Source: Mobula hypostoma (Eukaryota). From it: 64,000 nucleotides of DNA. The stretch is taken from assembly GCF_963921235.1 (NCBI RefSeq), contig NC_086097.1:173726001-173790000 (forward strand), in the 5' to 3' direction. Each line of letters starts with the position of its first letter. Position 1 is the first letter of the stretch. This document shows, piece by piece, positions 1 through 60,674 of the stretch. Position numbers and translations under genes: made by a program. The notes beneath the pieces were generated by a model. The model had not been told where the DNA came from. It saw nothing but the letters and a program-made list of their open reading frames with translations, and made no database searches.

Positions 1-2455
1 CCCGTTGCATCTCAGAACTTCGAATTTTTTCCCCATTTAAATAATAGTCTGCCCGTTTATTCCTTCTACCAAAGTGCATAACCATACACTTTCCAACATT
101 GTATTTCATTTGCCACTTCTTTGCCCATTCTCCCAATCTATCCAAGTCTCTCTGCAGACACTTTGTTTCCTCAGCACTACCAGCCCCTCCACCTATCTTT
201 GTATCATCAGCAAACTTAGCCACAAGGCCATCTATTCCATAATCTAAATCGTTGATGTATAACGTAAGAAGAAGCGGCCCCAACACGGACCCCTGTGGAA
301 CACCTCTGGTAACCAGCAGCCAACCAGAATGAGATCCCTTTATTCCCACTCTCTGTTTCCTGCCAATCAGCCAATGCTCTATCCACGTATGTAACTTTCC
401 ATAATTCCATGGGCCCTTATCTTGTTTAGCAGCCTCGTGCAGCACCTTGTCAAAGGCCTTCTGAAAATCCAAATACACAACATCCACTGCATCTCCCTTG
501 TCTAGCCTACTTGGAATTTCCTCAAAAAATTGCAAAAGGTTTGTTAGGCAGGATTTTCCTTCAAGGAAACCACGCAATCTTCCAGTCCTCCAGAACCATG
601 CCAGAATCTATTGACTTTTGAAAGATCATTGCTAATGCCTCCGTAATCTCCACAACTACTTCCTTCAGAACACGAGGGTGCATTCCAACTGGTCCGGGTG
701 ATTTATCTACCCTTAGACTATTCAGCTTCCTGAGTACTTTCTCTGTTGTAATTGTGACTGCGCACACTTCTCTTCCCTGACACCCTAGAGTGTCTAGTAT
801 ACTGCTGATGTCTTCCTCAGTGAAGACTGATGCAAAATACTTGTTCAGTTCCTCCGCCATCTCCTTATCTCCCATTACGATTTCTCCAGCATCATTTTCT
901 ATTGGTCCTATATCTACTCTCACCTTTTACTCTTTATACACTTGAAAAAGCTTTTAGTATCCTCTTTGATATTATTTGCAAGCTTCAATTCATAGTTCAT
1001 CTTTTCCCTCATAAAGACCTTCTTAGTTTCCTTTTGTAAGGTTTTAAAAACTTCCCAATCCTGTCTTCCCACTAATTCTTGCTTCCTTGTATGCCCTCTC
1101 CTTTGCTTTAACTTTGGCTTTGACTTCTCTTGTCAGCCACAGTTGCATCCTTTTTCCATTCGAAAATTTCTTCTTTTTTGGAATATATCTGTCTTACACC
1201 TTCCTCACTTCTCGCATAAACTCCAGCCACTGCTGCTCTGCCGTCCTTCCCGCCAGTGTCCCTTTCCAGTCAACTTTGGCCAGTTCCTCTCTCATGCCAC
1301 TGTAATTTCCTTTACTCCACTGAAATACCGACACATCGGATTTCAGCTTCTCTTTCTCAAATTTCACAGTGAACTCAATCATGTTATGATCACTGCCTCC
1401 TAAGGGTTCCTTCACCTCAATCTCTCTAATCACCTCTAGTTCATTATACAATACCCAATCCAGTACAACCGATCCCTTTGTGGGCTCAACGACAAGCTGT
1501 TCTAAAAAGCCATCTCGCAGACATTCTACAAATTCTCTCTCTTCAGCTCCAGTGCTGACCTGATTTTCCCAATCCACTCGCATGTTAAAATCCCCCACAA
1601 TTATCATAACACTGCCCTTCTGACAAGGCTTTTCTATTTCCTGTTGTAATTTGTAGTCCACATCACTGCAGCTGTTTGGGGGCCTGTATATAACTGCCAC
1701 CAGGGTCCTTTTACCCCTGCGATTTCTTAGCTCAACCCATAAAGATTCTGCACCTTCCTATCCTATGTCACCTCTTTCTAATGATTTAATATCATTTCTT
1801 ACCAATAAAATCATGCCACCCCCTCTGCCTACCTGCCTAACCTTCCGATACACCGTGTATCCTTGGATGTTCAGCTCCCAGAGACATTCATCCTTTAGCC
1901 ACGTCTCAGTGATGGCCACAATATCACACCTGCCAATTTGTAGCTGTACGACAAGATCATCCATCTTATTCTTTATGCTGCGTGCATTTAAGTATAACAC
2001 TTTAAGTCCAGTATTTGGTACTTTTTGCTTTGATTGCACCGCAACTCATCCCAATGGCTGCAAATTTGCCCCATCACCTGCCTGTCCTTCCTGACATCTT
2101 TACTGCTCACTATCTTAGATTTATTTCTGTTTTCCCCCTCCTCTGCTCTATCATTCCAGTTCCCATCCCCCTGCCAAATTAGTTTAAACCCTCCCTAACA
2201 CCTCTATTAAACCTTCGCGCCAGGATATTTGTCCCCTTCGGGTTCAGGTGTAACCCGTCCTTTTTGAACAGGTCATACTTCCCCCAGAAGAGATCCCAAT
2301 GATCCAAGAATCTGAAGCCCTGCCCCCTGCACCAGTCTCTCAGCCATGCATTCATCTACCTGATCCTACTATTCTTGCCCTCATTAGCACTTGGCACAGG
2401 TAGCAATCCTGAGATTACTACCCTGGAGGTCCTGTTCTCAGCTTCCTTCCTAACT
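1..2455 (-). mobile_element. CR1 LINE, ORF2 (APE endonuclease plus N-half of RT) and ORF1 C-terminus, degraded; runs off the window start
   Basis: ORF pieces LKVLYLNARSI..IAITETWL (1758-2039), YRPPN..IIVGDFN..GSDHNMIEF (1194-1700), KSPGPVGMHPRVLKEV (561-923), broken by stops and frameshifts. Confidence 0.92.
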
Positions 2456-3024
2456 TTCTATCGAACTCAATAAATAAGTTTGCTGATGACACCACAACTG
2501 TAGGCCGTATCACGGGTAATGATGAGTTTGAGTACAGAGAGGAAATTAAGAACCTGGTGGTGTGGTGCGAAGACAATAACCTATCCCTCAACGTCAGCAA
2601 GATGAAGGAATTGGTTGTTGACTTCAGAAGGAGTAGCGGACCGCACGACCCCATTTACATCAGTGGTGCACAAGTGGAACAGGTCAAAAGCTTTAAGTTC
2701 CTTGGGGGCAATATCACAAATGACCTGACTTGGTCCAACCAAGTAGAGTCCACTGCCAAGAAGGTCCACCAGTGTCCTTACTTCCTGAGAAAGCTAAAGA
2801 AATTTGGCCTGTCCCCTAAAACCCTCACTAATTCTTATACACATTAGAAAGCATTCTTCTAGGGTGCATCACAACCTGGTATGGAAGTTGCCCTGTCCAA
2901 GACTGGAAGAAGCTGCAGAAGATCGTGAACACGAGGAATTCTGCAGATGCTGGAAATTCAAGCAACACACATCAAAGTTGCTGGTGAACGCAGCAGGCCA
3001 GGCAGCATCTCTAGGAAGAGGTAC

Positions 3025-3060
3025 AGTCGACGTTTCGGGCTGAGACCCTTCGTCAGGACT
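3025..3060 (-). ncRNA. Minimal type I hammerhead ribozyme motif (Penelope type)
   Basis: Minus strand reads AGUC-CUGACGA-AGGGUCUCAGCCC-GAA-ACGU-C-GACU: stem I AGUC/GACU, core CUGANGA, stem II GGG/CCC, GAAA, palindromic ACGU stem III, GUC cleavage triplet. Confidence 0.8.
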
Positions 3061-3319
3061 AACTGAAGGAAGAGCTAGTAAGAGATTTGAAAGTGGGAGG
3101 GGGAGGGGGAGATCCAAAATGATAGGAGAAGACAGGAGGGGGAAGGATGGATCCAAGAGCTGGACAGGTGATTGGCAAAAGGGATATGAGAGGATCATGG
3201 GACAGGAGGCCCACCTCTGGGTTTTCCCCCCTCCCCCCCCCCCTCCTGTCTTCTCCTATCATTTTGGATCTTCCCTCCCCCTCCCACTTCCAAATCTCTT
3301 ACTAGCTCTTCCTTCAGTT

Positions 3320-3355
3320 AGTCCTGACGAAGGGTCTCGGCCCGAAACGTCGACT
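3320..3355 (+). ncRNA. Minimal type I hammerhead ribozyme motif (Penelope type)
   Basis: AGTCCTGACGAAGGGTCTCGGCCCGAAACGTCGACT, with all core positions intact. Confidence 0.8.
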
Positions 3356-3877
3356 GTACTTCTTCCTAGAGATGTTGCCTGGCCTGTTGTGTTCACCAGC
3401 GACTTTGATGTGTGTTGCTAGAAGATCGTGAACACAGCCCAGCACATCACACAAACCAATCTTCCGTCCTTGGACTCAGTTTACACTGCACGCTGTTGGA
3501 GCAGTGCTGCCAGGATAATCAAGGACACAACCCACCCAGCCAACACACTTTTCATCCCTCTTCCCTCCGGGAGAAGGCTCAGTAGCTTGAAGACTTCTAC
3601 GACCAGATTTGGAAATAGCTTCTTTCCAACCATGATAAGACTGCTGAACTGATCCTGACCCGGACCTGGGCCGTACCCTCCAAATATCCGGACCTGCCTC
3701 TCTGTTTTTGCATCACCTTACTTTCCCTTTTCTATTTTCTATTTATGATTTACAATTTAAATTTTTAATATTTACTATCGATTTGTACCCCAGGGAGCGC
3801 GAAGTGCAGAACCAAATATCGCTGTGATGATTGAATGTTCTAGTATCAATTGTTTGGTGACAATAAAGTATAAAGTA

Positions 3878-4235
3878 TAACTCCTGGAAATCTCCCTTCA
3901 GGACCTCCTCCCTTTTCCTATCTATGTCATTGGTACCAACATGTACCAAGACAGCTGGCTGCTCACCCTCTCCCCTCAGAATATTCTGTACCCGATCCGA
4001 GACATCCCGTACACTGGCACCTGGGAGGCAACACACCTTGCGGGTATCTCTATCAGGCTCACAGAATCTCCTGTCCGTTCCCCTGACTATGGAATCCCCC
4101 ACGACTACCGCATTTCTCTTCTCCCTCCTTCTCTCCTGCACAACAGCGCCAGGCTCAGTGCCAGAGACCCGGTCACCTTAGCCATCCCCTGTCAGGTCAT
4201 CCCCCTCAACAGCATCCAAAACGAGACACTTGCTG
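3878..4235 (-). mobile_element. CR1 ORF1 (SGNH esterase-like), continuation of the element at 1-2455
   Basis: AVVVGDSIVRG..CCLPGA..VHVGTNDI..EEVLKGDFQEL in ORF 3743-4141. Confidence 0.88.
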
Positions 4236-6102
4236 CTGTCAAATGACTATAACTTGCTTTGAGAAGTTAAAAGCTGTGAAGCAGAACACTTCCTTAAGAT
4301 CTGAATTTGTCAACAACATGCAATGACATGGTCATCCGCTTTGGCTGCAGTTGTTCTACTGATCTCAAATAGACCTGACTGAAATATTGCTGTGGTTTTC
4401 TTCGTACCAAGAATATTAAACAGATGAATGAACGATAACCACAAGTGAGTCAGCATGAAAAGGAACTTGAGAGGACCATCTCAAACACTTGCCACATGAT
4501 CACCCATTTGCCCCTACCAGCACTGTGTGTGGAAGAGATGAAAGTTTCCACATTGGCCTAATCAGAAATCTCAGAACCTGCAAAACCAGAGTTATTCTCA
4601 ATCCTGAGGGCCTACATAAGAAGAAGCTGTTATTATTTTGTAACTGAATAGCTGGTGTAGCACAGTGGGAATATTCCTGTCGCTATGAAATAGTCAGTAA
4701 TTATTTCAATCCTCATATCAAGACTGATTATCTCTCCAGCGCAGTGCAAGGTGGTGCTGGTGAACCATGATGCCGTATTGTGGGCTGCTTACAAAACATA
4801 TAACTCTTCTGAGTTACCCTCACTGCAATTTGCAGCCTGTAATTTCCCTTTCAGCAAAATTATTATGAATCTACTTAATAAGCAAGCAATTTCACAATAT
4901 TCTGAAGGACTCAGCGGGCTTGACTCTCAAGCCTGCACCTTGAAGCAGATGTCATCATGGCCAGAAGAGAGGGAGGAGGGGAGGACTCCAAGCCAGGCTG
5001 AGCCACTAAGAAATGAAAGTCCCTCTACTCAGCATCTTGGTAGCAAATGTACGGTCGCTGGAGAAGAAGATTGAGGACCTAAGGGCAAAATTGTTGTCTT
5101 GGAGAAAAATGAGGAATTACTGTGTTCTGTGTTTCACGGAAACAAGGCTCACTCTGAAAAGTCGGATGAGTAAGTAAGACCCAAAGGCTTCTCAATACAC
5201 AGGATGATCCAAACGTCTGATTCAAAGGTGGCAAAACGTGGTGGTGGGGGGGCCTCTGTGTTTCATGATTAACTCTTCTTGTTGCTCGAACACGACAGTT
5301 CTATCATACTCTTGTTCTCCTGATCTGGAGCAACTAAAGATTAAGTGCTAACCATTCTACTTAGCAAGAGAGTTCTCCTCCACGATGCTGACCACAGTTT
5401 AAGTACTGCCCAAAGACAACGTTAATCAGATACTTGAGATATTAAATGCTACCATCATCAAACCAGAAACAGCTTACCCCAACACATTTCAAATCAGTCA
5501 GTGACTTCAATCAGACTTTTTGAAGAAATCTCTGCCCAATTATCATCAGCATATAACTGGCAGCACCAGGGGTCCCAAAACACCTGATCACTGCTATACT
5601 TCAAAAAGGAGTGCCTACTCTTTTACACTTAGATTGCATTTTGGGAAATCTGATCACTTGGCTGTCCTTCTCCTACATACATACAGGCAGAGGCTAAAGA
5701 GCAAGATTCCAGAGATAAGGACACAAAGAGATGGTACATGACGCAGAGAGGCAGCTACAGAACTGCTTTGAGTCAGTGGACTGGGTCATGTTCAAGGACT
5801 CATCAAAGGTTCTGAACAAATATCACGACAGTTGTTACAGACCTTATAAACGCAGTCATAGACAAGTATGTCTCCACAAACCCTGCATGAACCATGAGAT
5901 TCACAATATGCTGAGGGCCAGATCAGTGGCATTCAGGTCTGGCGACCAAGTGAGATACAAGAGGTCTAGGTACAATCACCGGAAAGCCATCCCACTTGCG
6001 AAATGGCAATTCTGGACTAAACTTGAGTCACTGCAGAATGTTCAGCAGCTGTGGAAGGGTTTTACCTCTTACAAAGTGAAACCAAGCGTCATAGATGACA
6101 AC

Positions 6103-8120
6103 GCAAACATGAGAAAATCTGCAGATGCTGGAAATTCAAGCAGCACACACAAAATGCTGGTGAACACAGCAAGCCAGGCAGCATCTGTAGGAAGAAGTAC
6201 AGTCGACGTTTCAGGTTGAGACCCTTCGTCAGGACTAATGGAAAAAAGAGATAGTAAGAGATTTGAAAGTGGAGAGGAAGGGGGAGACCCGAAATGATAA
6301 GAGAAGACTGGAGGGGGAGGGATGAAGCCAAGAGCTGGGAAGCTGATTGGCAAAAGGGATACAAGGCTGGAGAAGGGGGAGTATCATGGGACAGAAGGCC
6401 TTGGAAGAAAGAAAGGGGGAGGGGAGCACCAGAGGACGGTGGAGAATAGGCAAGGAGTTATTGTGAGAGAGGAAGAGAGAGAAACATACATACATACATA
6501 CATAAATAAAGGATGGGGTACGAAGGGGAGGAGGGGCATTAACGGAAGTTAGAGAAATCAATGTTCATGCCATCAGGTTCGAGGCTGCCCAGACAGAATA
6601 TAAGGTGTTGTTCCTCCAACCTGAGTGTGGCTTCATCTCGACAGTAGAGGAAGCCATGGATTGACACATCGGAATGGGAATGGGACGTGGAATTAAAATG
6701 TGTGGCCACAGGGAGATCCTGCTTCCTCTGGCGGACAGAGCGTAGATGTTCAGCAAAGCGGTCTCCCAATCTGCGTCAGGTCACCTCCCTCCCCTTCCTT
6801 GATCTCTCTGTCTCTATCTCTGGGGACAGCTTATCTACTGATGTCTACTACAAGCCCACAGACTCTCACAGCTATCTGGACTATTCTTCTTCCCACCCTG
6901 TTACTTGTAAAAATGCCATCCCCTTCTCTCAATCCCTCCGTCTCCGCCGCATCTGCTCTCAGACTGAGGCTTTTCATTCCAGGACGAAGAAAATGTCTTC
7001 CTTTTTTAAAGAAAGGGGCTTCCCTTCCTCCACCATCAACTCTGCCCTCAAACACATCTCTCCCATTTCACGCACAGCTGTTCTCACCCCATCCTCACGC
7101 CACCCCACTAGGAATAGGGTTCCTCTTGTCCTCACCTACCACCCCACCAGCCTCCAGGTCCAACATATAATTCTACATAACTTCTGCCATCTCCAATGGG
7201 ATCCCACCACCAAGCACATCTTTCCCTCCCCCCCAACTTTCTGCAGGGATCACTCCCTACGTGACTCCTTTGTCCATTTGTCCCCCACCATCCCTTCCCA
7301 CCGATCTCCCTCCTGGCACTTACCCTTGTAAGCAGAAGAAGTGCCACACCTGCTCTCCCTCCCTCACCACCATTCAGGGCCCCAGACAGTCCTTCCAGGT
7401 GAGGCGACACTTTGCCTGTGAGGCGACACTTTACCTGTGAGCCTGCTGGTATGATATACTGTTTCCGGTGTTCCCGGTGTGGCCTTCTATATCTTGATGA
7501 GACCCGACGCAGATTGGGAGACCGTTTCGCTGAACACCTACACTCTGTCTGTCACAGGAAGCAGGATCTCCCAGTGGCCACACATTTTAATTCCACGTCC
7601 CATTCCGATATGTCGATCCACGGCTTCCTCTACTGTCGAGATGAAGCCACACTCAGGTTGGAGGAACAGGGTAGCATCCAACTTGATGGCATGAACGTTG
7701 ATTTCTCTAACTTCAGCTAATGCCCCTCCTCCCCTTCTTACCCCATCCCAATTTATTTATTTATTTATTTATTTTTCTCTCTTTCCCTCTCACAATAACT
7801 CTTTGCCTGTTCTCCATCTTCCTCTGGTGCTCCCCTCCCCCTTTCTTTCTTCCAAGGCCTTCCGTCCCATGATACTCCCCCTTCTCCAGCCTTGTATCCC
7901 TTTTGCCAATCAACTTCCAAGCTCTTGGCTTCATCCCTCCCCCTCCTGTCTTCTCCTATCATTTTGGGTCTCCCCCTCCCCCTCCCACTTTCAAATCTCT
8001 TACTATCTCTTTTTACCATTCGTCCTGACGAAGGGTCTCAACCCAAAACGTCGACTGTACTTCTTCCTGTAGATGCTGCCAGGCCTGCTGCAGTCCACCA
8101 GCATTTTGTGTGCGCTGCTT
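6103..8120. mobile_element. Penelope-like element: inverted pLTRs with RT C-terminus and GIY-YIG endonuclease remnants
   Basis: Plus arm ~6782-8120 encodes LPFLDL..TDVYYKPTDSHSYLDYSSSHP..RLRRICS and IYCFRCSRCGLLYLDETRRRLGDRFAEH. Minus arm 6103-~6781 repeats the GIY-YIG end and pLTR. 15-bp TSD GTCATAGATGACAAC at 6088-6102 and 8121-8135. Confidence 0.92.
6201..6236 (-). ncRNA. Minimal hammerhead ribozyme motif
   Basis: Minus strand AGUCCUGACGAAGGGUCUCAACCUGAAACGUCGACU, core intact. The partner copy at 8021-8056 (+) has GAAA changed to AAAA. Confidence 0.75.
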
Positions 8121-9518
8121 GTCATAGATGACAACAATGCTTTGCTCCCAAGAGAGCTCAGAGCCTTCTATGCTCACATTGACCTTCAAAACATGGGGGA
8201 GAAGCCTTCAGCAGCTCCCACTGCCCCTGATGACCTTGCAATTTCAGTCTCTGAGGCCAGGGTGAAAACAATCTTCAGAAGGTGAACCCACAGAAACCAT
8301 CTGGCCCAGGCGGGTAGCTGGCCAAATACTAAAGAGCTGTACTGATCAACTGACTGCAGCGTTCACTGATATCTTTAACTCCACGCTTTGGCAGTCTGAC
8401 ATACCCACCTGCTTCAAGCAAGCTTCAATTATAAGAACATGATAACCTGCCTCGATTACTATCATCCAGTCGCACTTACATCCACTGTGATTAAGTGCCT
8501 CCAGAGGTTGGTGATAAAACACATCAACTTCAGCACGAGAAGTGACTTGGATCTGCTGCAATTTACCTACTGGCTCAACAGGTTCACACCAGATGCCATT
8601 TCAAATTTGCTGACAACAGCACTGTCAGTGGCCAAATCATAGGTAGTGATGAATCAGCATATAGAGGGAGATTGAAGATATTGCTGAGTTGTCACGCAAA
8701 TAACCTCTCACACAAGATCAACAAGACCAGCAAGCTGATTATTGACTTCAGGAGGAGGAAATTCGAAGGCCACGTAGCTGGTCTTCATTGGGGATCAGAG
8801 GCACAGAGAGTCAACAAATTTAAATTCCTCAATGTTATCATTTCATAGGACCATTATTGGGCCCAGCATGCAAGAAAGCACGGCAGGGCCTCTACTTCCA
8901 TAGAAATTTGCAAAGATGCAACATGACATCTAAAACCTTGACAAACTTCTATTGGTGTGTGGTGGAGAGTATATTGACTGGTTGCATCATCAATGCCCTT
9001 GAACGGATAATCTTATAAAAAGTAGTGGATATGATACAACCCAGACCATCACAGCCAAAGCCCTACCCACCATTAAGCACATCTACACAGAGTGCTGTCG
9101 CAGGAAAGCAGCATCCATCATCAAGGACCCCCATAACCAAGCACATACTTTCTTCTTGCTGTTGTCATCAGGAAGAAGGTACAGGAGCCCAGGTCCCACA
9201 TCACCAGATTTAGGAACAGTTAATACACCTCAGCTATCAGACTTTTGAACCAGTGGGGAAAACTTCATTCAATTTCACTTGCCCCATCACTGAACTGTAC
9301 CCACAACTTATGCACTCACTTTCAAGGACTCCTCATCTCATGTTCTCAATATTTATTGTTTATTTATGATTATTATTTCTTTTTTTCTATTTGTATTATT
9401 ATAGTTTATTGCCTTTTGTACACTGGATTGTTGTCCATCCTGTTGGATATGGTCTTTCATTGATGCTATTATGTTTCCTGGATTTACTGTATATGCCCAC
9501 TGCAAAGATATGATTCGC

Positions 9519-9759
9519 GAGGGTGGGGGGAGGAAGAGGGAGGGAGAGGGGTGAGGGGATGGGGGGAGAGGGGGGAGGGGGGAGAGGGGAGGGGGAGGGG
9601 GAGGGGAGAGGTAGGGGGAGGTGAGAGGGGAGAGGTAGGGGGAGGTGAGAGGGAAGGGGAGGGGGAGGGGTGGAGGGGAAGGGAGGGGGTGGAGGGGAGG
9701 GAAGTGGCGGGGAGGGGGAGGGGAGGGGAGGGGGGAGAGAGAGAGAGAGGGAGGGGGGA
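9519..9759 (+). repeat. G-rich polypurine low-complexity tract
   Basis: About 240 nt of almost pure G/A with many G3-G6 runs and an internal tandem duplication (GAGGGGAGAGGTAGGGGGAGGTGA x2). Confidence 0.95.
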
Positions 9760-11269
9760 TTATGAGAGGCACAGAAATACTGGATAATTAAAAACAAAAG
9801 GCTCAAAGTCAGGAGTAGGAGATTTAAAGGGGATCTTTGGGGTAAGAATTTATGGTTAAAAATCACACAGTTATTGAAATGTGCAACATTTTCACAGATG
9901 GTGGTATAGAAACAATTATTATATTTAGCAGGCATTTAGAAAGACACTCAAATAGGCATGGCATAGAAGGTTACAGTCAGATGAAGGAAAAATTGAAGTT
10001 TACATGGGCAAAAAGGTCAGCACAGAGGTGATGGGCAAAAAGTCTGTTTCTGTGCTGTACAACATGATGAATCAATGACTCTAAAGATGTGAGAACCTTC
10101 AAGTGGATCACAAGTATCTCGTTTCTGTGCAGTAAAGTTATGTAGAACGAGAACAGTGGTTAAAGTCCATTCCTGTCTACCTTGTAAAATTCTGCTCAGT
10201 TAACCACATCAGGATGATAACAGCACCTGCTAGCTGAGATCAGACATAAATCCAAAAGGTCTCAGAAATGCTCATCCCAAAGAAATAATGACCATCTGTG
10301 CACATGCACAAAGCCCATTTTGGATCATGTCACTGAACTGGCAAAGCTATAGGCAGAATATAAAGAAGTAGATGACCATTAAGAACTAGGAAGTGAACAT
10401 TAATGAAACTGATGGTCTCTTAACAGTTATTCTTACTTTGCATGCTCAGCAGCAATTGCATTCCACATTATAAGTAAAGAAATTTAACTTTTAATAACAG
10501 CCCTAGAAAGAATTATTGAAACAGTTATCTCAAATTTGATTATTCCCATTTTTATCATGTTCAAACCTATTAGCACTCTGAAAAAAGTAACCTTGAGCTG
10601 TCTGCAAGACCTTAAATAGATAAAAATAACTTACAAGAGATTATAATCTAACTAAACAAACTTTCAGAAAGGAAACTACTATCATTGTAGTACTTATTGA
10701 CATAACCTTGTTGGAGTAGATGATTCCAGTATTACTTACTGCTGTTCCTCAAAGCAAACAAATGGACTAACTTAGCTCTCTCCAAAGTTTTAAACTATCG
10801 GAATGGCTGAACCAAATAGTTTAAAATCAAATCCATGAACAGTATCTGAAAATGCACCATTTTTCATCCTGAAATCACAGCACCTTTTTTTCCTAGTCTC
10901 CACTATCAACAACAAAGTCAAGTCAAACATTTCAAAGTGCAACATGGAAGCAGACATGACATTAAAAGGACAGGTACATAAGTATATAACTAAATTATAT
11001 AATATACAGTTTGCTCAAGTTTAGATCTGAAGTATGCCTGTCATTTGAAAGTTTGGGAGTATTTTTCTTCAATTTAAAACCTGCAGTTCTCAATAGTCCA
11101 AACGATTTAAACCTGTTTAAGTGAAAAGGTCTGGTAGATTCTTTCAGCAGCCAAAAAAACTGGCAAGAAAGATATTACTTAGTAAAATCTATATGCTGTG
11201 CTATCTTTGTGCATTTGGTTTACATCTGGAAAAAAATGTTGCAGCTTTAGAATTGGGTGTGATGTAAAT

Positions 11270-12350
11270 CAAAACAACTGCAGATACTAGAAATCTGAAA
11301 TAGAAACCCAAAATGCTGGAAATACTCAGCAAGTCAGACAATACCTGTGGAAAGTGAAAACAAATTAGTTGTCAGTAGCATGGTTTAGAAAAATGACTGT
11401 GGTAGTGCACAGCGCTCTTGACCACAGCTCTTCTATTTCCTGCCCCACAGTTCTATTCCTTTCTCCCACTCTAGTTTCCCTTGTTCTCAACTTCCATCAC
11501 CTAAGCCTCCATATTCAATGGATTACCCCTTAACAGCTGCACCAGCTCCAATATCATTCTATATACCTATATCTTCCGTATTTTGCATTTTGTGTTACCC
11601 TGGTCCACTCCCAATGACTTCCATTTTATGGTATGTTTCCCTGCAACTGAGGAAATGAAACACATGTCCTTTCACCTTTTCTCTTCTGTCCCCCCCTCAC
11701 CCCCATGAGGGACACAGTCTCTCCAAATTTATTAACAATTCTCTTGCACTTCTTCTGGTCTAGTGTACTACAATCAGTAATTACAATGTGGCCTCCTCTG
11801 CACTAGAGAAACCAAACGCAGATTGGGTACATCACTGATTCACAAGGGTGATCACTGAATGCACGTGTTCAATGTAACGGAGTGATCCTGAGTTTCTTCT
11901 TGCCTGTCAGTTTAATTGCCACTCTAATCTATTTGGCTGTAGGATCAACAGAAGCTTCAGGAACAACATCTATCTCAACATAGCCTTCCAGAACCAATAA
12001 CAAATTCTCCAACTTTTTCTAACTCACTCTTTCTATTTGCAACAGAACTTGTCATTTCTGCGAATCATCTGTCTTTGACCCAGTTACTCTCTTTTCATTA
12101 ATATTGTTAATACCACAATCCTATTAGCAACACAACACACAAAGAAGTATAATCTGACTCCAACTATTACACTAATTTATAGGTCTCACCCCATCAGACA
12201 CATTCTCTCTGTTCTACCGATTCCTCTCCTATCTTCTCTGCTACTGAAACTCTCTGTCCCAATTTTGACAAAGGGTCTCCAGCTTGAAACAATAACTCTG
12301 TTTAACTTTCCATAGGTGCTGCCTTACCTGCTGAATGTTATCAGCATTTT
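11270..12350. mobile_element. Old, highly decayed Penelope-like element with inverted arms
   Basis: CTGCAGATACTAGAAATCTG..AAATGCTGGAAATACTCAGCA at the left end, inverted match near 12310-12350, and GIY-YIG-like DNA remnants at ~11630-12010. Confidence 0.6.
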
Positions 12351-12359
12351 CAAAATTAA

Positions 12360-13557
12360 AGCAACACACACAAAATGCTGGAGGAACTCAGCAGGTTAGG
12401 CAGCTGGTAAAAATTACAGTTGACGTTTCGGGCTGAAACCCTTTGGAAGGACTGGAGACAAAAGCTGAGGAGTAGATTTGAAAGGTGGGGGGGGGGGAGA
12501 GGAGAGAGAAACGCCAGGCAATAGGTGCAACTTGGAGGGGAAGTGATGAAGCAAAGAGCTAGTTAGTTGATCAGTGAAAGAGACAGAAGGCCATGGAGGA
12601 AAGAAGAAAAATGGGGGGGGCAGGGAGAAGAACTAGAAGGAGGCAATGGTTAGGCAATGAGATAACATGAGAGAGAGAATGGACAAGGAAGTCACATAGG
12701 GAGCGATCCCTGCAGGGGATTGTCCATTCCTCCCTCCCCACTGATCTCCCTCCTGGCAATTCTCCTTGCAAGCGGAACAAGTGCTACATCTGTTGCTACA
12801 CTTCCTCCCTCACTACCATTCAGGGCCCTAAACAATTCTTGAAGGTGAGGCGACACTTCACCTGTGAGTCTGCTGGGATCATATACTGTGTTCGGTGCTT
12901 CTGGTGTGGCCTCTTGTATATTGATGAGACCGAAGGAGATTGGGAGACTGCTTCGCCAAGCATCTATACTCCGTCTGCCAGAAGAAGTGGGATCTCCCAG
13001 TGCCACCCATTTTAATTCCACTTCCCATTCCCATTCTGATATGTCCATCCATGGCCTCCTCCACTGTCGGGATAAGGCCACACTTATGTTGGAAGAACAA
13101 CACCTTATATTCTGTTTGGGTAGCGTCCAATCTGATGGCATGAACGCCAATTTCTCAAATTTCCAGTAATGTCCCCCCTCCCACCCCATCACCATTTCCC
13201 ATCCCCTTGTCCTTCTCTCATGTTATCTCCTTGCCTGCCCATCGCCTTCCTCTGGTGCTCCTCCCCCCCCCACTTTTCTTCCTTCCATGCCCTTCTGTCA
13301 CCTTTCACTAATCAAATTCCCAGCTCTTCGCTTCATCCCTCTGCTTCCAAGTTGCACCTGTCACCTGGCGTTTCTATCTCCCCTCCTCCCACCTTTCAAA
13401 TCTACTCTTCAGCTTTTTTTCTCCAGTCCTGCCAAAGGGTATTGGCTTGAAGTGTCGACTGTACTTTTTTTTCTATAGATGCTGCCTGGCCTGCTGAGTT
13501 TCCCCCAGCATTTTGTGTGTGTTGCTCAGATTTCCAGCATCTGCAGATTTTCTCTTG
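12360..13557. mobile_element. Penelope-like element with inverted pLTRs and GIY-YIG remnant
   Basis: ATHFNSTSHSHSDMSIHGLLHC..LEEQHLIFCLG (ORF 12864-13169). Inverted arm 12360-~12719. TSD TTTTCAAAATTAA / TTTTCGAAATTAA at 12347-12359 and 13558-13570. Both hammerhead cores are mutated. Confidence 0.88.
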
Positions 13558-13642
13558 TTTTCGAAATTAAGTAGGGTGCCTGATTCACAACAAACCTCAT
13601 TTCTAACAGGAGCAAATTAGAGAATGTTATAGGTTGAATATT

Positions 13643-14072
13643 TATACTTTACACTTTATACTTTATTGTCGCCAAACAATTGATACTAGAGCGTCCAATC
13701 ATCACAGTGATATTTAATTCTGCGCTTCGCGTTCCCTGGAGTACAAATCAATATTAAATATTAAAAATTTAAATTATAAATCATAAATAGAAAATAGAAA
13801 AAGGAAAGTGAGGTAGTGCAAAAAAACCGAGAGGCAGGTCCGGATATTTGGAGGGTACGGCCCAGATCCGGGTCAGGATCCGTTCAGCAGTCTTATCACA
13901 GTTGGAAAGAAGCTGTTCCCAAATCTGGCCGTACGAGTCTTCAAGCTCCTGAACCTTCTCCCGGAGGGAAGAGGGGCGAAAAGTCTGTTGGCTGGGTGGG
14001 TCGTGTCCTTGATTATCCTGGCAGCACTGCTCCGACAGTGTGCGGTGTAAAGTGAGTCCAAGGACGGAAGAC
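13643..14072 (-). mobile_element. Rex1/Babar 3' fragment, same family as 2456-3877
   Basis: LPSLDSLYTAHCRSSAARIIKDTTHPAN..PLPSGRR..SFFP. 3' UTR and TAAAGTA tail closely match 3460-3877. Confidence 0.9.
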
Positions 14073-14519
14073 TTGAATTCAATTGTGTAATATAGTTGAT
14101 TAAATCCAACTTTTAATGCTCAAAGTATTTTAATTTCGCTTGCAGTTTCTAATTCAGCTGCAATAATCAGAGTTGCCAGACTTTGGACCTAATTTAAATA
14201 TTCTGATTTTTCAAATTAAATTTTACTAACTTGTTACAATATTTGAACAGTATGCAGCAACCTATCTCTCAAGGTTTATGCTGCTACTTTCTGGTTCAAA
14301 CTTTTAAAATCCCAGCTCTCCAATTAGGCAAAACTATGCTGGATCCAAAATTAATTATTTAGTTAAAAAAACTGCATTCACTTAAAATGATCAATGAATC
14401 ACATAGCCCAATCAGCTCAAAATCTCCAAACTAAGTCTTAATGCTGTTTTGAAAAATACAAGTGCACTGTGTAACACTCTATCTCAATTAAGGTCAGTGC
14501 TAAAAAGTTAGGTTAGGTC

Positions 14520-15120
14520 TAAGAACACTGAGGCTGTCTACAAGGGTCAGAGCCGTCTCTATTTCCTGAGGGGACTGAGGTCCTTTAACATCTACTGGAT
14601 GATGCTGAGGATGTTCTACGAGTCTGTGGTGGCCAGTGCTATCATGTTTGCTGTTGTGGGCTGGGGCAGCAGGCTGAGGGTAGCAGACACCAACAGAATC
14701 AACAAACTCATTCGTAAGGCCAGTGATGTTGTGGGGATGGAACTGGACTCTCTGACGGTGGTGTCTGAAAAGAGAATGCTGTCTAACTTGCATGTCATCT
14801 TGGTCAATGTCTCCCATCCACTACATAATGTACTGGGTGGGCACAGGAGTACATTCAGCCAGAGACTCATTCCACCGAGATGCAACACAGAGCGTCATAG
14901 GAAGTCATTCCTGCCTGTGGCCATCAAACTTTACAACTCCTCCCTTGGAGGGTCAGACACCCTGAGCCGATAGGCTGGTCCTGGACTTATTTCATAATTT
15001 ACTGGCATAACTTACATATTACTATTTAACTATTTATGATTCTATTACTATTTATTATTTATGGTGCAACTGTAACGAAAACCAATTTCCCCCGGGATCA
15101 ATAAAGTATGACTATGACTA
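14520..15120 (+). mobile_element. Rex1/Babar-type LINE 3' fragment (different family)
   Basis: ORF 14599-14973 MLRMFYESVVASAI..SHPLH..RKSFLPVAIKLYN; AATAAA followed by an (ATGACT)n tail. Confidence 0.85.
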
Positions 15121-16334
15121 AGTCTCGCCATTCTATGTGCAATTAAGTCAAAACTTACTTAATATAACTAAGCTGTAGAAAAGTTAAAACATAGCACAAA
15201 TGCAAAAGGCTGCAGATTCTGAAAATCTGAAATAGAAAGAGGAATATTTGAGAAATACTCAGATCATGTAATACTCTTAGAGGAAGTAACAGATTAACAT
15301 TTCACCCTCCTTTGAAAGCCTTGCCATTTCTCTCTCCATGAACGCTATATGACCCATCAGATGTTGCCTGTATTCTAGGACTTCACTGCTTTCAATTATG
15401 CCTCTCTGATATAAAAAATAGACATGCAAAAGTATATATTGTGTGAGAACATGGTGATACACAGCTGCAAAGCACACCATGTTAACATTCCCAAACTGGA
15501 GTTAAATTTGAAGGATTATTTTTAAGTTATGGTAGCAGAGATGTGTCAACATGTACTGAATATAGTTTGCATGCTAACATCTTAAGGGGACATAAAATTG
15601 GGGGGTGGGGTGAGATGGATTCAGGATGTAAAAAAGCAGCAGCTCCTTTCAATCTTTTTAACCACATTAATTAGTTAACATATTGCTACCTATGTAATTT
15701 CAAATTAGCACACTTTTTCTGATCTGGTGTTTATTGATACCACAAGAGTCAAATTCATTGCTATGTGACTATAAAATTATCATACCTATAACGTGTTTAG
15801 AAGATTTCCAAATTGAGCTGCAATCCATATCCAATGAGTCTAATGCAAATAAGGTGTGGTTTCACTTTAACCAAAACAATACAATAGATTTGATTAGAAA
15901 AGATAGTTTTTACTTTTTTGAGACTCTGCAGCCAGCATAATCAAAGACCCCACCTATTCTAGACATTCTTTCTTCATATCCCCTCCCCTGCCATCAGGCA
16001 AAAGGTGTAAAAGCCTAAAAGCATGTACCATCAGCCTCAAGGACAACTTCTATCCTGCTGTTACAAGATTACTGTAACGCCCCCTTGTACAATTAGTGGA
16101 CTCTTGACTTTTTTTATATCATCATGGCCTTGCACCTTATTACCTGCCTGCATTGCACTTTCTGTAACACAAAACAACACTTCTCACCAAACCTCAATAC
16201 ATGTAACAATAATGTGACAATGAAGATCATAACTAGTAACCAAAATTCACCCCATTATACTTTGTCAATAGAAACAACTTCAAGCAGTGCACCTGTGAAT
16301 ATTTGAGTCACAAAACTACATTTTGCACCCACAA

Positions 16335-16760
16335 ATCGCAGGACTTTGCAGACAGTGGTGCGGACAGCCAGCACATCTGTGGATGTGAACATCCCACTAC
16401 TCAGGACATATACAGTGTCCTTTTTGTTTGTGTACGTAAAAAGGGCCCAAAGGGTCATTGGGGACCCAAGTCACCTCAACCACAAACTGTTCCAACTGCT
16501 ACCATATAGAAAACGGTACAACATTAAAACCAGGAACAACAGGCTCCGGGACAGCTTCCTCCACCAGGCCATCAGACTGATTAATTCATGCTGATACAAT
16601 TGTATTTCTAAGCTATATTGACTGTTCTGTTGTATATCTTACTGTATATACTACTGATTACAAATTACTATAAACTGCACGTTGCATATTCAGATGGAGG
16701 TGTAAAGATTTTTACTCCTTATGTATGTGAAGGATGCAAGAAATAAAGTCAATTCAATTC
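16335..16760 (+). mobile_element. Rex1/Babar 3' fragment
   Basis: LQTVVRTA..IGDPSHLNHKLFQLLP..DSFLHQAIRLIN; AATAAA followed by an (AATTC)n tail. Confidence 0.8.
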
Positions 16761-17169
16761 ACAAACCAATAGAAATACATCATCAGTTAATGTAACATAT
16801 GTTACAATCTCAGAAAAAGGATCAATTCTCAGGAAATTTTGAGCACTTTAAATTGTGCAGTAGCATATTTAGTTGTATATGAGGAAAAAGCAGTTATTTA
16901 CTGATACTTAAAGAAAATACACATCAAAGAACCATTAAATTTAGGAAGCAATGACCACGTGAGCTGATCAAAAGCCCACTTCTCAAGTTGCAGTTTAATC
17001 ACTATTTAAAATACTGTTCTTATAACTTGAAGATATAATCTCACCTGACTATCCTGGTCAGTTAGGTGAAAGAGAGGGCAACAGGTCAAGGCCCAGAAGG
17101 CTATAAAAACTTTTGTTTGTGTAGTTCAAGGGGAGGGAAGCAAACATCAAAGAGAAAATAAAGCAATAC

Positions 17170-17257
17170 CTTTGCCAGCACTGCACTCCATTGTATACAG
17201 GTAATCCATGTAGAAAGCTCCAAAACGCTGCACACCAGCTATCTCTGTGTATGTCTC
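17170..17257 (-). CDS. VPS13B: VPS13B internal coding exon (probably exon 12 equivalent)
   Basis: 88 nt, pyrimidine-rich tract+cag|...|gtattg. Translates ETYTEIAGVQRFGAFYMDYLYTMECSAGK+G (phase 1 end), matching recalled ETYTEIAGMQRFGAFYMDYLYTME. Confidence 0.95.
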
Positions 17258-18810
17258 CTGCCAACAAAGAAAGACAAATAAAACTTAAGTTCCAGAAGGA
17301 TGGAGTTCAGAGATTACAGCCCTATACAGGGATGCCTATTTATATTTGTGTAGCCATTACACAAAGACTTATCAGGGAAAGAGTACAGAGGTTATCTTAA
17401 GCACCCTCCAATTCAAGTAACATGACATAGTACAGAGAGCAATACAATTTGGGTTACTACTTCACCAGTTAATATATAATTTTAGTTACATTGAGAGTCA
17501 GTGATCTCTCAGTATTTTTTCCCAAATGTAGCTTAGAATTCAATTATACTCATGCTATTTGTTGAAGTGTGGCATCTGTATTCAGGAATACAATGCAAAT
17601 CTGCCTCAAAAATTACCTGCATATGATAGAACTTCAACAAGAATACAGATTGGCCAGTGTTCAATCACCAAAACTGTGCTTGTACCACCCTAAAGTTTTC
17701 TGTCAAGTAAATGACAATTACAACTAATAGCTTACAGTAAAATCAATACTCTTCGCTTTCTCTCCCATTAGTACCTTCCGCCACTCAAAGGTGGAATTCA
17801 CTTTTAATTATACTGCAGGGTTTGTGAAACAGAATCTCCATACACAGGTTTATTTTAAACTGCATTGTAGGGTTTAGTGTACATCTTTTAAAATGAAACT
17901 TTCGCAAGATTTTATTTACCTGTAGCTCTAAGCGAAGCAAAATATAACATGGGTGCTTCAACTTTAACGTTCACTTCAACGTTAAGCAGAGAATGGTACA
18001 AAAGTTAAAAACAGCATTGTAGTCTATCTCTCCAATTCTGAAGATACAAAAATGCTCTAGCATTCCCCCATTATCCTTTACTTCAAAACAAACCTATCCA
18101 ACTTTAGCTTCAATTGTCCTGTAGGATCCTCACTGTCTTCCTGGGTAATCTTGTTCATCTGTCCACCAACTAATTGCTGACTACGTCTCCACAAAGGCAA
18201 ATTGATAATTCTTGATCAACTTGTGCCACTCTAAGTTTAGATTAGTCCTATCCTTTACAATGTTTTACAGCAACTTTCCTATTCCTGACATGATATTACT
18301 GGACTAATATCCTGGTTTATCCCTGCAGCCCTCTTGAATAAGGGTACCATATTTGTTGTCACTAATGTGGCCAAACAAAATTCGAAAATTTCTGCAATCT
18401 TAACTCGCACGACAGCCTCAAAAATCATCAGACCCTGGGGATTTATTCAGTTTTAACTCCTCAAAATCTAAGATGTCCTCTTGTTCATTGACAGTGTACT
18501 CTAGAACTATGATAGAGATGTACAAAATCATAAAACACACAGATAAGATGAATGTATGCAGTGTTTTTCTCCCCCAGGAAAAGGCAATCAAAATCTCGAA
18601 GGCAAAGGTTTAAGGTGATGAAGTTCAGATCTGTGAAAAAGTTTTGATTTCAAAGGGTCTCAAAGGGCATCATTTTCATGCATGTACATAGAATCAGCTG
18701 CCAGAGTGAGTGATTGAGCCAGGTACAATAATAAAATTTAAAAGAGATTTAAACAGGTACATGGATAAGAAAGATTGAGAGGAATATAAGTCAAATACGA
18801 TTGAAAGAGG

Positions 18811-28429: not shown

Positions 28430-29955
28430 ATAAGACCATAAGGTCATATGACATAGGATCAGACTAAGGCTATTTGACCCATCGAACCTGCTCAGCCATT
28501 CAATCATGGCTGACAACAGGAATTCTGCAGATGCTGGAAATTCAAGCAACACACATAAAAGTTGCTGGTGAACGCAGCAGGCCGGGCAACATCTCTAGGA
28601 AGAAGAGCAGTCGACGTTTCAGGCCGAGACCCGTCCTGACGAAGGGTCTCAGCCTGAAACGTCAACTGCACCTCTTCCTAGAGATGCTGCCTGGCAATCA
28701 TGGCTGATCCTTTTTTCCCCTCCTCAGCCCAACACCCCGGCCTTCTCCCCATAACCTTTGATACTGTATCCAATCAAGAATCTATCAAGCTCTGTCTTAA
28801 ATACTTTACTTTTACTTTATTGTTGCCAAACAATTGATACTAGAGCATACAATCATCACAGCGATATTTGAATACACCAACAACCTGGCCTCCACAGCTG
28901 CCTGTGGTAATAAATTCCACAAATTCACCACCCTCTGGCGAAAGTAATTTCTCCACATCTCTGTCTTAAATGGACGCCCCTCTATCCAAAGGCTGTGTCC
29001 TCTTATCCTAAACTCCCCCACAATAGGAAACATCCTATCCACATCTGCTCTGTCTAGGCCTTTCAACATTCAAAAGGTTTCAATGAGATCCCCCTTCATT
29101 CTTCTAAATTCCAGCGAGTACAGAGCTATCAAACATTGCTCGTATGATAACCCTTTCATTCCCGGAATCATCCTTGTGTACCTCCTCTGAACCCTCTCCA
29201 ATGCCAGCACATCTTTTCTTTGATGCGGAGTCCAAATCTGATCACACCTTTAAGGTGTTCTGCACAGGGACTCCCAAGTCCCTTTGCATCTCAAATTTTT
29301 GGATTTTCTCCCTGTTTAGAAAATAGTCTGCACATTTACTTCTTCTACCAAAGTGCATGACCATGCATTTTCCAACATCACATTTCATTTGCCATTCTCT
29401 TGCCCATTCTTCTAATCTGTCTCAGTCCTTTTGTAGCCTACTTGTTTCCTCAACACTACCTGCCCCTCCACCAATCTTTGTATTATCCGCAAACCTGGCA
29501 ACAAAGCCATCTATTCCATCCTCTAAATCATTGATGTACAGCATAAAAAGAAGGGGTCCCAACACCGACCCCTGCAGAACACCACCAGTCACTGGCAACC
29601 ATAAGGATCTTCACTGCCAGTCAATGCTCTAAAGATGCCAGCAAATTTCCTGTAATGCCATGGGCTCTTAACTTGGTAAGCAGCATCATGTGTGGCAGCT
29701 AGGACATCTGAAAGTCCAAATATACAACATCCACTGCATCTTTATCTATCCAACATGTAATCTCCTCAAAGAATTCCAACAGGTCCCTCAGTCAAGATTT
29801 TCCATTCAGGAAACCAGGCTGACTTTGTCCTATCTTGTCCTGTGTCACTAAACATAACCTCATCCTTAACAACTGACTCCAACATCCTCCCAACCACTGA
29901 AGTCAAGCTAACTGGTCCATAATTTCCATTCTTAAAGAGTAGAGTGACATTTGCA
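28430..29955 (-). mobile_element. CR1 LINE 3' part with internal deletions; hosts a mini-Penelope and a ~70-bp Rex tail (28801-28870)
   Basis: GLDRADVDRMFP..RGHSL..FRQRVVNLWNLLP; NYGPVSLTSVVGRMLES; tail repeats at ~28430-28455. Confidence 0.85.
28514..28694. mobile_element. Miniature fold-back Penelope insertion with hammerhead motif
   Basis: 13-bp TSD CAATCATGGCTGA at 28501-28513 and 28695-28707. Arms meet inside the ribozyme. Plus-strand core GTCCTGACGAAGGGTCTCAGCCTGAAACGTC at ~28633-28663. Confidence 0.85.
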
Positions 29956-33319: not shown

Positions 33320-33870
33320 ATAGAAAATCCACCAACTATTGCTCAACCATGCCACAATCTGCTAAACAGCAAAAAGTGCTCAGACAACCCTGTGACTCTA
33401 AATGCAAAACAACTGGAAGCATTTCAAACTTTAAAGGTGACATTTTGTTCTGCACCTGCATTAAGAATCCCTGATACAGATAAATCATTTATCCTGTAAG
33501 TCAACAAGAAACACATGATAGCAGTATTAACTCAAGAACATGGTGACAGACAGCATCCTGTTAACTATTAATCTGACAAAGATCTGGTTCTGTACAGTGA
33601 TGGCTCCTCAGTGATTTCTGGAACTGAACTGCCGGCATCAGGAAGCATGGCTCCTAGTAGCTATCTGCAACAGGCAGAACTAAAAGCTTTGATTGAAGCC
33701 TGTAAGTTAGCAAAAGGAAGATCACCTTATATCTACACTGATTCTCAGCATTCTTTGGAAGTGTTCATGATTTTGACAATTTATGCAATAAGAATTTCTT
33801 ACAAATATAGGATCCACAATCAAAAATGGCCAACGGATGCAAGAACTTATGGATGTCATACAACTGCTGA
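33320..33870 (+). pseudogene. pol: ERV pol remnant: RT thumb/connection and RNase H N-part (RNase H resumes ~36150-36260)
   Basis: EAFQTLKVTFCSAPALRIPDTDKSFIL..AVLTQEHGDRQHPV; LYSDGSS..QQAELKALIEACKLAKGRSPYIYTDSQ; IKCKSYSK..ESCGN after the CR1 insert. Confidence 0.85.
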
Positions 33871-40619: not shown

Positions 40620-41435
40620 CTACCAGACCAATTTACATTGGGTCACGGGATCACTTTGTTAAGCACCTCTGGTCCAGCAACCAAAAGCAGAATTTCCCAC
40701 TGGCCAACACGAGGAATTCTGCAGATGCTGAAATTTCAAGCAACACACATAAAAGTTGCTGGTGAACACAGCAGGCCAGGCAGCATCTCTAGGAAGAGGT
40801 ACAGTCAACGTTTCGGGTCGAGACCCTTCGTCAGGCCTGCTGCATTCACCAGCAACTTTTATGTGTGTTGCTTTCCCATTGGCCAACCATTTTAATTCCT
40901 ATCCCCATTCCAGTTCCAACATGTTGGTCCACAGCCTCCTCTTCTGCCACCATTGGGCCACTTTCAAGGCGGAGGAGTAACACCTCATATTCTACCTTCA
41001 AACTGATGGCATGAACATCAATTTCTCCTTCCTGCTTGTTTTTCTTTCCCCACCCCTTACCTTTACTTCTATCCCCCACTCTGGTCTCTTACCTCTTCTC
41101 CTCATCTGTCTATCACCTCCCCCTGGTGCCCCTCCTTCTTCCCTTTCTCCTATAGTCCACTCTCCTCTCCTATCAGATTTCTTCTTCTCTAGTTCTTTAC
41201 CTTTCCCACTTCAACGATCACCTTCCAGCTTGTCCTCTTCCTCCTCCCCCCACCCTTAGTCTGGCAACTTCCCCTTCCATTCCAGTCCTGATGAAGGGGC
41301 TCATTGAAAATATTGACCAAATTAAATGAATTGAATATTCATTTTCAGAGATGCTGCCTGGCCTGCTGAGTTTCTCCAGCATGCTGTGTGTGTTGCTCTG
41401 GATTTCCACCATCTGCAGAATTTCTTGTGTTCATG
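40620..41435 (+). mobile_element. Penelope-like 3' fragment (GIY-YIG end plus pLTR), older copy
   Basis: FPLANHFNSYPHSSSNMLVHSLLFC..; pLTR ending GATTTCCACCATCTGCAGAATTTCTTGTGTT. Confidence 0.8.
40709..40871. mobile_element. Miniature fold-back Penelope inserted in another Penelope; minus-strand hammerhead at ~40803-40835
   Basis: 16-bp TSD TTTCCCA(C/T)TGGCCAAC at 40693-40708 and 40872-40887. 40835-40871 is the reverse complement of ~40739-40777. Confidence 0.85.
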
Positions 41436-60596: not shown

Positions 60597-60674
60597 CTTG
60601 ACAAAAATAAGATGAAATATTGTGATTAAAATATTAAGTGCTGTATGTTCAATCAAGAAAGAACATCTCTGGCA

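What the first reader, a model, noticed from the sequence alone, without database searches (positions are those of the whole stretch)
2917..3435. Fold-back Penelope insertions carrying minimal hammerhead ribozymes on both strands
Seen: a 487-bp insert whose two arms are reverse complements, each with an intact AGUC-CUGACGA-stemII-GAA-ACGU-C-GACU motif (3025-3060 minus, 3320-3355 plus). Established: Penelope-like elements carry minimal type I hammerheads whose palindromic stem III favours dimer-dependent cleavage. Inference: this family (related motifs at ~6201, 8021, 12417, 13425, 28633, 40803, 41284, 60768) seeds the genome with latent self-cleaving RNAs. In any read-through transcript the inverted arm would pair with the ribozyme and silence it, a built-in antisense lock that could explain why such inserts are tolerated in introns.
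Basis: partly seen in the sequence, partly recalled or inferred. Interest (0 to 1): 0.75.

Follow-up and report, generated by a model that had tools for sequence, protein, structure and literature searches.

The report
Head-to-head Penelope insertion in VPS13B intron
This 487-base hairpin in a VPS13B intron is two back-to-back end pieces of a very common Penelope-type jumping gene, each with that family's small hammerhead motif; it was likely written by two separate copying events, one from each cut DNA strand, and although the mirror arm is predicted to block the ribozyme, unpaired copies keep intact motifs just as often, so the block is likely a by-product and not a safety device.

Summary
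In detail: a 487-bp insert between perfect 16-bp target duplications, inverted arms, two intact minimal hammerheads. It sits in a LINE remnant in a VPS13B intron of a cartilaginous fish. It is the terminal repeat of an autonomous Penelope-like element (3.5-kb unit, 1,016-aa RT plus GIY-YIG ORF) in the published inverted-repeat-plus-tail layout; opposite-strand hammerhead pairs were reported in 2014. Folding predicts that the mirror arm abolishes the ribozyme helices. The lock as a reason for tolerance is not supported: intact motifs occur in 60 of 123 paired and 51 of 95 unpaired arms, and an unpaired intact sense copy lies in the same gene. The test restricted to sense intronic copies could not be run. 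The better lead is mechanism: 111 of 123 fold-backs have the ~34-nt tail on one arm only, 102 of 119 have target duplications, both ends show primer-template microhomology, and in 58 of 117 each arm holds sequence the other lacks. Both nicked strands likely prime reverse transcription at two start sites. The scan found this kind before: 469 notes in at least 42 genomes, including this one.

The parts
2917..2932 (+). Left copy of the 16-bp target-site duplication; its last 5 bases also match the element's end (positions -6 to -2)
2933..3213 (-). Arm A: tailed terminal piece of the element, family positions about -286 to -7 (-1 = end of the tail); sense in the VPS13B pre-mRNA
2933..2960 (-). The tail: bases present on arm A only (-34 to -7)
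   Evidence: layout as in PMC8557442 and PMC3846280
3025..3060 (-). Minimal type I hammerhead, intact; cut predicted between 3029 and 3028
   Evidence: numbering from general hammerhead knowledge and PMC4209133
3209..3213 (.). Hinge: 5 bases that fit both arms (microhomology)
3214..3419 (+). Arm B: tail-less terminal piece, -323 to -304 joined to -220 to -35 (83-nt internal deletion between C-rich runs)
3320..3355 (+). Minimal type I hammerhead, intact; cut predicted between 3351 and 3352; antisense to VPS13B
3420..3435 (+). Right copy of the target-site duplication
2413..3760 (+). Host LINE remnant that the insert interrupts (limits approximate); weak RVT_1 and ALKBH8_N hits in 2413-2844
1..17167 (-). 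Part of a 24.7-kb VPS13B intron (between the exon at 17168-17260 and an exon about 7.5 kb before the window)
6105..8121 (.). Second fold-back of a diverged subfamily (arms -675 to -1 and -1383 to -33, 15-bp duplication); intact sense motif at 6201-6236, broken motif near 8021
28518..28695 (.). Short fold-back, 13-bp duplication, no fully intact motif
40706..40873 (.). Short fold-back, 16-bp duplication, motif without stem I

Best explanation
The insert is a single, non-coding insertion of two end pieces of a Neptune-type Penelope-like retrotransposon, likely made when both nicked strands of the target primed reverse transcription at two neighbouring start sites and the two copies were likely joined at the hinge, and its hammerheads are likely silent passengers. 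Shown: the anatomy, the parent element, the one-sided tail, the duplication, microhomology at both outer ends, the intronic position. Inferred steps: (1) the GIY-YIG nuclease nicks the two strands about 11-16 bp apart; (2) one 3' end primes at the outer site (about -7 to +4), the other at the inner site (about -48 to -33); (3) the template is RNA not cut at the hammerhead, usually from the same source copy for both arms, sometimes from two; (4) both cDNAs stop early, often just past the hammerhead, and are joined by short homology or filler; (5) the overhangs are filled, giving the duplication. Head-to-head geometry puts the antisense arm first in any transcript, so a long duplex that buries the ribozyme is predicted as a by-product.
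For: Parent: tandem 3,515-bp unit, 1,016-aa ORF with YIDD, CX4CX2C and GIY-YIG motifs; the ATG lies 37 nt after the tail (Pfam GIY-YIG above cut-off, RVT_1 below cut-off). One tailed plus one tail-less arm in 63 of 70 and 48 of 53 fold-backs, although unpaired copies use both ends about equally (16 and 14). Duplications in 55 of 67 and 47 of 52, mostly 12-16 bp, against 2 of 150 shuffled flank pairs. Mean target-to-element microhomology 1.38 nt at 37 tailed and 1.41 nt at 41 tail-less ends against 0.45 in shuffles, maximum 0.93 in 2,000. In 58 of 117 one-tailed fold-backs, and in this one, each arm holds 10 nt or more that the other lacks, so neither is a plain copy of the other. One pair differs at 8 of 14 linked subfamily sites (L176); 6 of 123 pairs differ at 2 or more of 7 markers. 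In vitro, an anole Penelope protein nicks and extends both strands from two start sites that bound the tail, on uncut RNA (PMC11167929). Passenger status.
Against: All of it is read from old insertions; nothing was assayed. Most pairs share their subfamily markers (1 of 103 discordant at -96 against 20.4 expected), which a self-copying hairpin also predicts. Hinge microhomology is weak: 11 of 22 clean hinges have 2 nt or more (13.6% expected), and 56 of 78 hinges carry filler or could not be resolved. PMC11167929 describes initiation at a site not homologous to the cut DNA, whereas short homology is seen here. 109 of the 123 fold-backs come from similarity- or pattern-selected loci; only 14 are from unselected DNA (12 of 14 one-tailed). 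In 34 of 117 the tailed arm contains the whole other arm, which does not discriminate. Two intact sense motifs lie 3.2 kb apart in this intron, close to the 3.5-kb unit spacing, and both are paired, as the lock idea would want.
Confidence: 0.7

Rival explanations
1. Self-priming hairpin: one template folds back and copies itself, and the nuclease then opens the hairpin unevenly, leaving the tail on either arm (the published proposal).
For: Proposed in PMC3846280 and, for the tail, PMC8557442. Arms mostly share markers and rare variants (54 shared, 33 of them in one diverged pair, against 4.8 expected). Small snap-back fillers occur at some hinges.
Against: Needs trimming to explain the 58 of 117 cases where the longer arm lacks the tail. 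Cannot give pairs from two subfamilies (L176). Does not predict equal target microhomology at both ends, nor unpaired copies of both end types with duplications (19 of 59 and 15 of 38).
Confidence: 0.17
2. Antisense lock under host selection: sense intronic copies with an intact ribozyme would cut host pre-mRNA as dimers, and only those shielded by an inverted arm persist.
For: Complete loss of the ribozyme helices in the fold-back, also in the nascent strand. The insert is intronic and its sense motif is shielded, as is a second intact sense motif 3.2 kb away. Tandem hammerhead retrozymes are reported as depleted from Xenopus introns (bioRxiv 10.64898/2026.07.22.740005).
Against: No enrichment of intact motifs among paired arms. 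Non-CpG core changes are as rare in unpaired (2 of 792) as in paired arms (5 of 945), so unpaired copies are not being broken faster. An intact unpaired sense copy lies in the same gene. The monomer is predicted inactive alone; a relative cuts only with its protein (PMC11167929).
Confidence: 0.08
3. Two separate events or a later rearrangement: a second copy inserted at, or recombined into, the first.
For: A few pairs differ in subfamily; copies are dense, about one young insertion per 20 kb (50 in 994 kb).
Against: One duplication frames both arms in 102 of 119 cases; strict one-tail rule; markers mostly shared.
Confidence: 0.05

Closest known systems
Complex insertions of endonuclease-bearing Penelope-like elements: inverted 5'-truncated copy plus 30-40-bp tail (Craig et al. 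2021, PMC8557442; Arkhipova et al. 2013, PMC3846280)
   Same: Inverted terminal piece joined head to head, tail on one end only, target duplication, partial tandems in full-length copies.
   Different: Here both arms are short and no ORF is left; duplications are longer (mostly 12-16 bp against the 8-10 bp cited for rotifer copies); the counts on 123 insertions favour priming from both target strands over the self-priming proposed there.
Minimal hammerheads in the terminal repeats of metazoan Penelope-like elements (Cervera and De la Pena 2014, PMC4209133)
   Same: Same core, extra base between positions 9 and 10.1, G10.1-C11.1 pair, palindromic 15.2-16.2, no loop III; that paper already notes pairs 100-700 bp apart on opposite strands.
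   Different: Stem II is short (3-4 bp). Cartilaginous fishes are not named in the two parts read. No activity was measured here.
Poseidon element of the green anole in vitro (Frangieh et al. 2024, PMC11167929)
   Same: Two start sites that bound the tail; both strands nicked and extended; uncut RNA as template; AT-rich targets (duplications here 496 of 733 bases A or T).
   Different: Other clade; here the hammerhead and tail lie before the ATG, there inside the ORF. The parts read do not treat inverted products.
Twin priming of L1 (recalled, no call)
   Same: The second target strand primes on the RNA and makes an inverted piece joined by short homology within one duplication.
   Different: In L1 the two pieces come from different parts of the RNA; here they overlap over nearly their whole length and start at two fixed sites about 35 nt apart.

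Membership tests
Endonuclease-bearing Penelope-like element | Single ORF with RT followed by a C-terminal GIY-YIG nuclease | tested here: met
   1,016-aa ORF in L281 with YIDD at 661 and GIY-YIG motif at 918; Pfam GIY-YIG 23.5 bits, cut-off 22.6; RVT_1 E 5e-5, below cut-off
Endonuclease-bearing Penelope-like element | Partial tandem copies forming pseudo-LTRs, variable 5' truncation | tested here: met
   L281, L282, L283, L287, L288; truncation series
Endonuclease-bearing Penelope-like element | Inverted 5'-truncated copy and 30-40-bp tail at one end | tested here: met
   111 of 123 fold-backs; 13 of 20 measured offsets are 31-42 nt, range 28-92
Neptune clade | CX2-5CxxC zinc-finger-like linker between RT and nuclease (shared with Nematis) | tested here: met
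   CKRNKCYTC before the GIY-YIG motif; definition from PMC8557442
Neptune clade | Placement with Neptune, not Nematis, in an RT tree | not tested
   No reference sequences were fetched; the label Neptune-type rests on the linker motif and on a vertebrate host
Minimal type I hammerhead | Conserved core, stems I and II, palindromic stem III without loop | tested here: met
   Both arms; descriptor from PMC4209133
Minimal type I hammerhead | Match to an Rfam hammerhead model | tested here: not met
   None among 16 matches at E<=5; the models expect a stem III hairpin (recalled)
Minimal type I hammerhead | Self-cleavage as a dimer or with the element's protein | not testable with these tools
   Needs an assay; nearest-neighbour energy of the active dimer is -11.9 against -32.1 kcal/mol for the best dimer, without tertiary terms
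Non-LTR retrozyme | Tandem direct repeats of a short non-coding hammerhead unit | tested here: not met
   Arms are inverted pieces of an autonomous element; definition from bioRxiv 10.64898/2026.07.22.740005
Self-propagating fold-back element or MITE | Several copies with the same hinge and arm lengths | tested here: not met
   No other of the 78 hinges listed has this insert's hinge; the other 39 of the 40 best-scoring places lack it (only 40 of 2,818 candidates were scored)

The most novel reading that the evidence does not exclude
Penelope-like elements integrate by coupled double priming: one complex nicks both strands 11-16 bp apart and assigns one 3' end to the outer and the other to the inner start site, on uncut RNA that often ends just upstream of the hammerhead. 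That single rule would explain the inverted repeat, the one-sided tail and the target duplication together, and the hammerhead core would be selected in source elements for a step other than making the template's end.
Probability: 0.6. Interest if true: 0.6.

Novelty: new member of a known kind. Interest (0 to 1): 0.33.

Why it matters
As an object the insert is ordinary: one of tens of thousands of dead end pieces in a layout described in 2013-2021. What counts is the record that the family leaves. How Penelope-like elements make their inverted repeats and tails is still open in the papers read, and the counts here give a direct prediction for the existing in vitro system: one start site per strand, in one product. 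If the lock idea were right it would be a new way for hosts to live with ribozymes in introns, but the tests run here do not support it.

Tried and rejected
Rfam: no hammerhead, only hairpin artefacts. Self-copying fold-back family: rejected, hinges differ. Cap signature (extra G at 5' ends, a lead from earlier notes): no clear excess, 15 G and 15 A before -134 in 30 loci; before -138, 8 G, 8 A and 6 T among the 22 true ends, and several of these bases belong to the duplication. Splice acceptor just before the hammerhead: ends scatter over -148 to -117 and show no common first exon; no GT..AG joint among the 15 joints shown in each of two layings, with 35 and 114 not shown. RNA runs: no holder on record as RNA, contigs only, so nothing on expression, starts or strand. 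One genome search returned nothing because its words were too common. Ends at the cut site: 13 of 30 loci scored as ending there; one of these continues on inspection, two are one locus, and the rest lie at joints with another piece of the element. That gives about 0.6-0.7% of 42,184 copies against 4.9% of 57,715 at -134 (purine neighbours only); no control position was counted, so a small real peak at the cut site is neither shown nor excluded. Pfam on 16 candidate exons found nothing useful; the gene came. Look-ups of earlier notes near the window were empty. Literature searches for twin priming with Penelope (2 papers), for sharks (4 papers) and for an antisense lock (4 papers) listed nothing on point; only listings were seen, and subscription papers are not held.

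Full report
Observation. The insert is 2933-3419 (487 bp) between identical 16-bp copies. Four other copies of the host LINE hold the 16 bp once and run on without the insert, so it is a true target duplication. Of the 8 other motifs named, only the one at 6201-6236 is fully intact (read by eye; for four of them). Rfam has no hammerhead match among 16 matches. The exact 23-mer 5' half of the motif occurs 54,898 plus 2,817 times in the 3.48-Gb genome, the reversed control never.

What it is. Longer copies run into an ORF with RT, a CX4CX2C linker and a GIY-YIG nuclease. Full copies are partial tandems with a 3,515-bp unit and a 1,016-aa ORF that starts 37 nt after the tail, so hammerhead and tail lie in the 5' leader as well as at the 3' end. 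The linker fits the Neptune and Nematis clades (PMC8557442); no tree was made. Numbering the end of the tail as -1, arm A is -286 to -7 on the minus strand, with 5 more matching bases inside the duplication. Arm B is -323 to -304 plus -220 to -35 on the plus strand. The hinge has 5 shared bases. A nearby exon matches VPS13B, best in skate, ray and sharks; tblastn places 9 exons in order on the minus strand, 4 in the window, with the insert in a 24.7-kb intron. Arm A is therefore sense in the pre-mRNA.

Sample used. Insertions were called with hits of 82% identity or more to a family consensus, chained within 200 bp. Sources: 994 kb of unselected DNA in 17 regions including the window, loci from five similarity searches, and 88 pattern-selected loci. 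Duplicate loci were dropped, and insertions at locus edges were left out of duplication counts. Unselected DNA gave 14 fold-backs, 16 unpaired tailed, 14 unpaired tail-less, 4 fragments and 2 others.

The lock idea. Physically it is predicted to work: in the whole insert the probability of every stem I and stem II pair is 0.0 on both strands and in a nascent transcript, and head-to-head geometry always puts the antisense arm first. As a reason for tolerance it failed the tests I could run. Fully intact motifs: 60 of 123 paired against 51 of 95 unpaired arms (p=0.50); 7 of 18 against 9 of 20 in unselected DNA (p=0.75). Decay is mostly at CpG sites in both groups. An intact, unpaired, sense copy lies in another VPS13B intron, 35 kb before the window start; its nearest antisense pieces are about 5.5 and 6.2 kb away. 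The lone motif folds into an inactive rod (-11.9 against -6.5 kcal/mol for stems I and II alone). Published relatives show no monomer activity and low dimer activity (PMC4209133) or cut only with the protein (PMC11167929). The sample is small enough that a modest effect limited to sense intronic copies would be missed.

How it likely arose. (a) 63 of 70 and 48 of 53 fold-backs have one tailed and one tail-less arm; free choice between two equally used sites would give half (p=3e-21). (b) 55 of 67 and 47 of 52 have a duplication, against 2 of 150 shuffled pairs; unpaired copies have one less often (34 of 97). (c) Both outer ends show excess target-to-element homology, 1.4 nt against 0.45 (37 and 41 ends that passed the filters). 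(d) In 58 of 117 one-tailed cases each arm has 10 nt or more that the other lacks; in 34 the tailed arm is the longer. (e) Arms usually share subfamily markers (discordant 1/103, 4/104, 4/99, 8/104, 3/90, 8/52, 13/59 against 20, 31, 35, 32, 15, 21, 29 expected), but L176 differs at 8 of 14 linked sites. (f) Hinges: 11 of 22 clean ones have 2 nt or more of homology against 13.6% expected; 56 of 78 have filler or were unresolved. I infer that both nicked strands prime, one at each start site, mostly on RNA from one source copy. One RNA read twice and two RNAs from one locus cannot be told apart here. The published self-priming model needs uneven opening of a hairpin to fit (d) and cannot give the mixed pairs.

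Where copies stop. 22 of 63 unselected arms end at -148 to -123, at the 5' edge of the hammerhead (-134), and 1 at the cut site (-102); 33 of 58 partner arms end at -148 to -117 and 1 at -102. Genome-wide, a purine precedes -134 in 4.9% of copies (30 of 30 loci are true ends) and precedes -102 in 1.6% (about 11-13 of 30 are ends). Templates were thus mostly uncut at the ribozyme, as found in vitro. The pile-up may mark the RNA start (an initiator-like TCAGTT lies at -140 to -135; consensus recalled) or a stall at a local hairpin. I found no clear cap-G excess and no splice joint, so this stays open.

Comparison. Inverted copy, one-sided tail and duplication: PMC3846280 (passages) and PMC8557442 (passages). 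Minimal hammerheads and opposite-strand pairs: PMC4209133 (parts 1-2 of 4). Two start sites, both strands extended: PMC11167929 (parts 1-2 of 4). Retrozymes and introns: bioRxiv 10.64898/2026.07.22.740005 (part 1 of 5 and passages). No supplements were seen; those of PMC4209133 and PMC11167929 may hold alignments that bear on this. Searches for a double-priming account of these insertions or an antisense lock listed nothing on point, but older subscription papers are not held. L1 twin priming is recalled. Earlier notes of this scan describe the same kind 469 times in at least 42 genomes and reach similar readings; they are not independent evidence. My double-priming reading was written before I saw them (note); the arm-length test and the cap and cut-site tests followed their leads.

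Verdict. Real, a new member of a known kind, interest 0.33. The lock is predicted but likely incidental. The counts on how both ends form are the part worth testing.

Noticed in passing
family positions -130 to -104 (window 3030-3056 and 3324-3350): Non-CpG core positions differ from the majority base in 7 of 1,890 cells (0.37%) against 2.0% in the flanks and about 1.3% per copy judged from target duplications (11 of 436 pairwise). The same holds in paired and unpaired arms and between the two arms of one insertion. Selection in source elements or sequence context may explain part of it; not resolved.
   Followed up: partly
older copies, e.g. window 60681-60803, 12353-13560, 51670-51753: Older families (under 82% identity) share the hammerhead and the end piece; in 25 of 59 the likeness starts at -137 to -130, often after a pyrimidine run plus AG.
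   Followed up: partly
L284, L285, L286 (G000 C21, C2, C18): Three full-length copies begin 3-14 bases before the next unit start, at the outer start site, i.e. almost exactly one unit long; L283 begins at -95. May mark a block at the next protein-bound site or a circular template.
   Followed up: no
L025:1495-3222; L022, L030, L031: Insertions with extra inverted pieces at the hinge; L025 is a near-perfect four-piece palindrome inside one 18-bp duplication.
   Followed up: no
L287:5674-5676 and L288:4533-4535: Two tandem copies share an internal duplication of about 210 bp in the proline-rich part of the ORF, so they come from one source lineage.
   Followed up: no
window 17168-17260, 48894-49031, 60474-60602, about 63200-63299 (minus): Four VPS13B exons; the gene spans at least 140 kb of the region fetched.
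   Followed up: partly
window 26335-26940 (minus) and 33572-33916 (plus): ORF remnants that look like a Tc1-type transposase and a retroviral-type RNase H (resemblance recalled, not tested).
   Followed up: no
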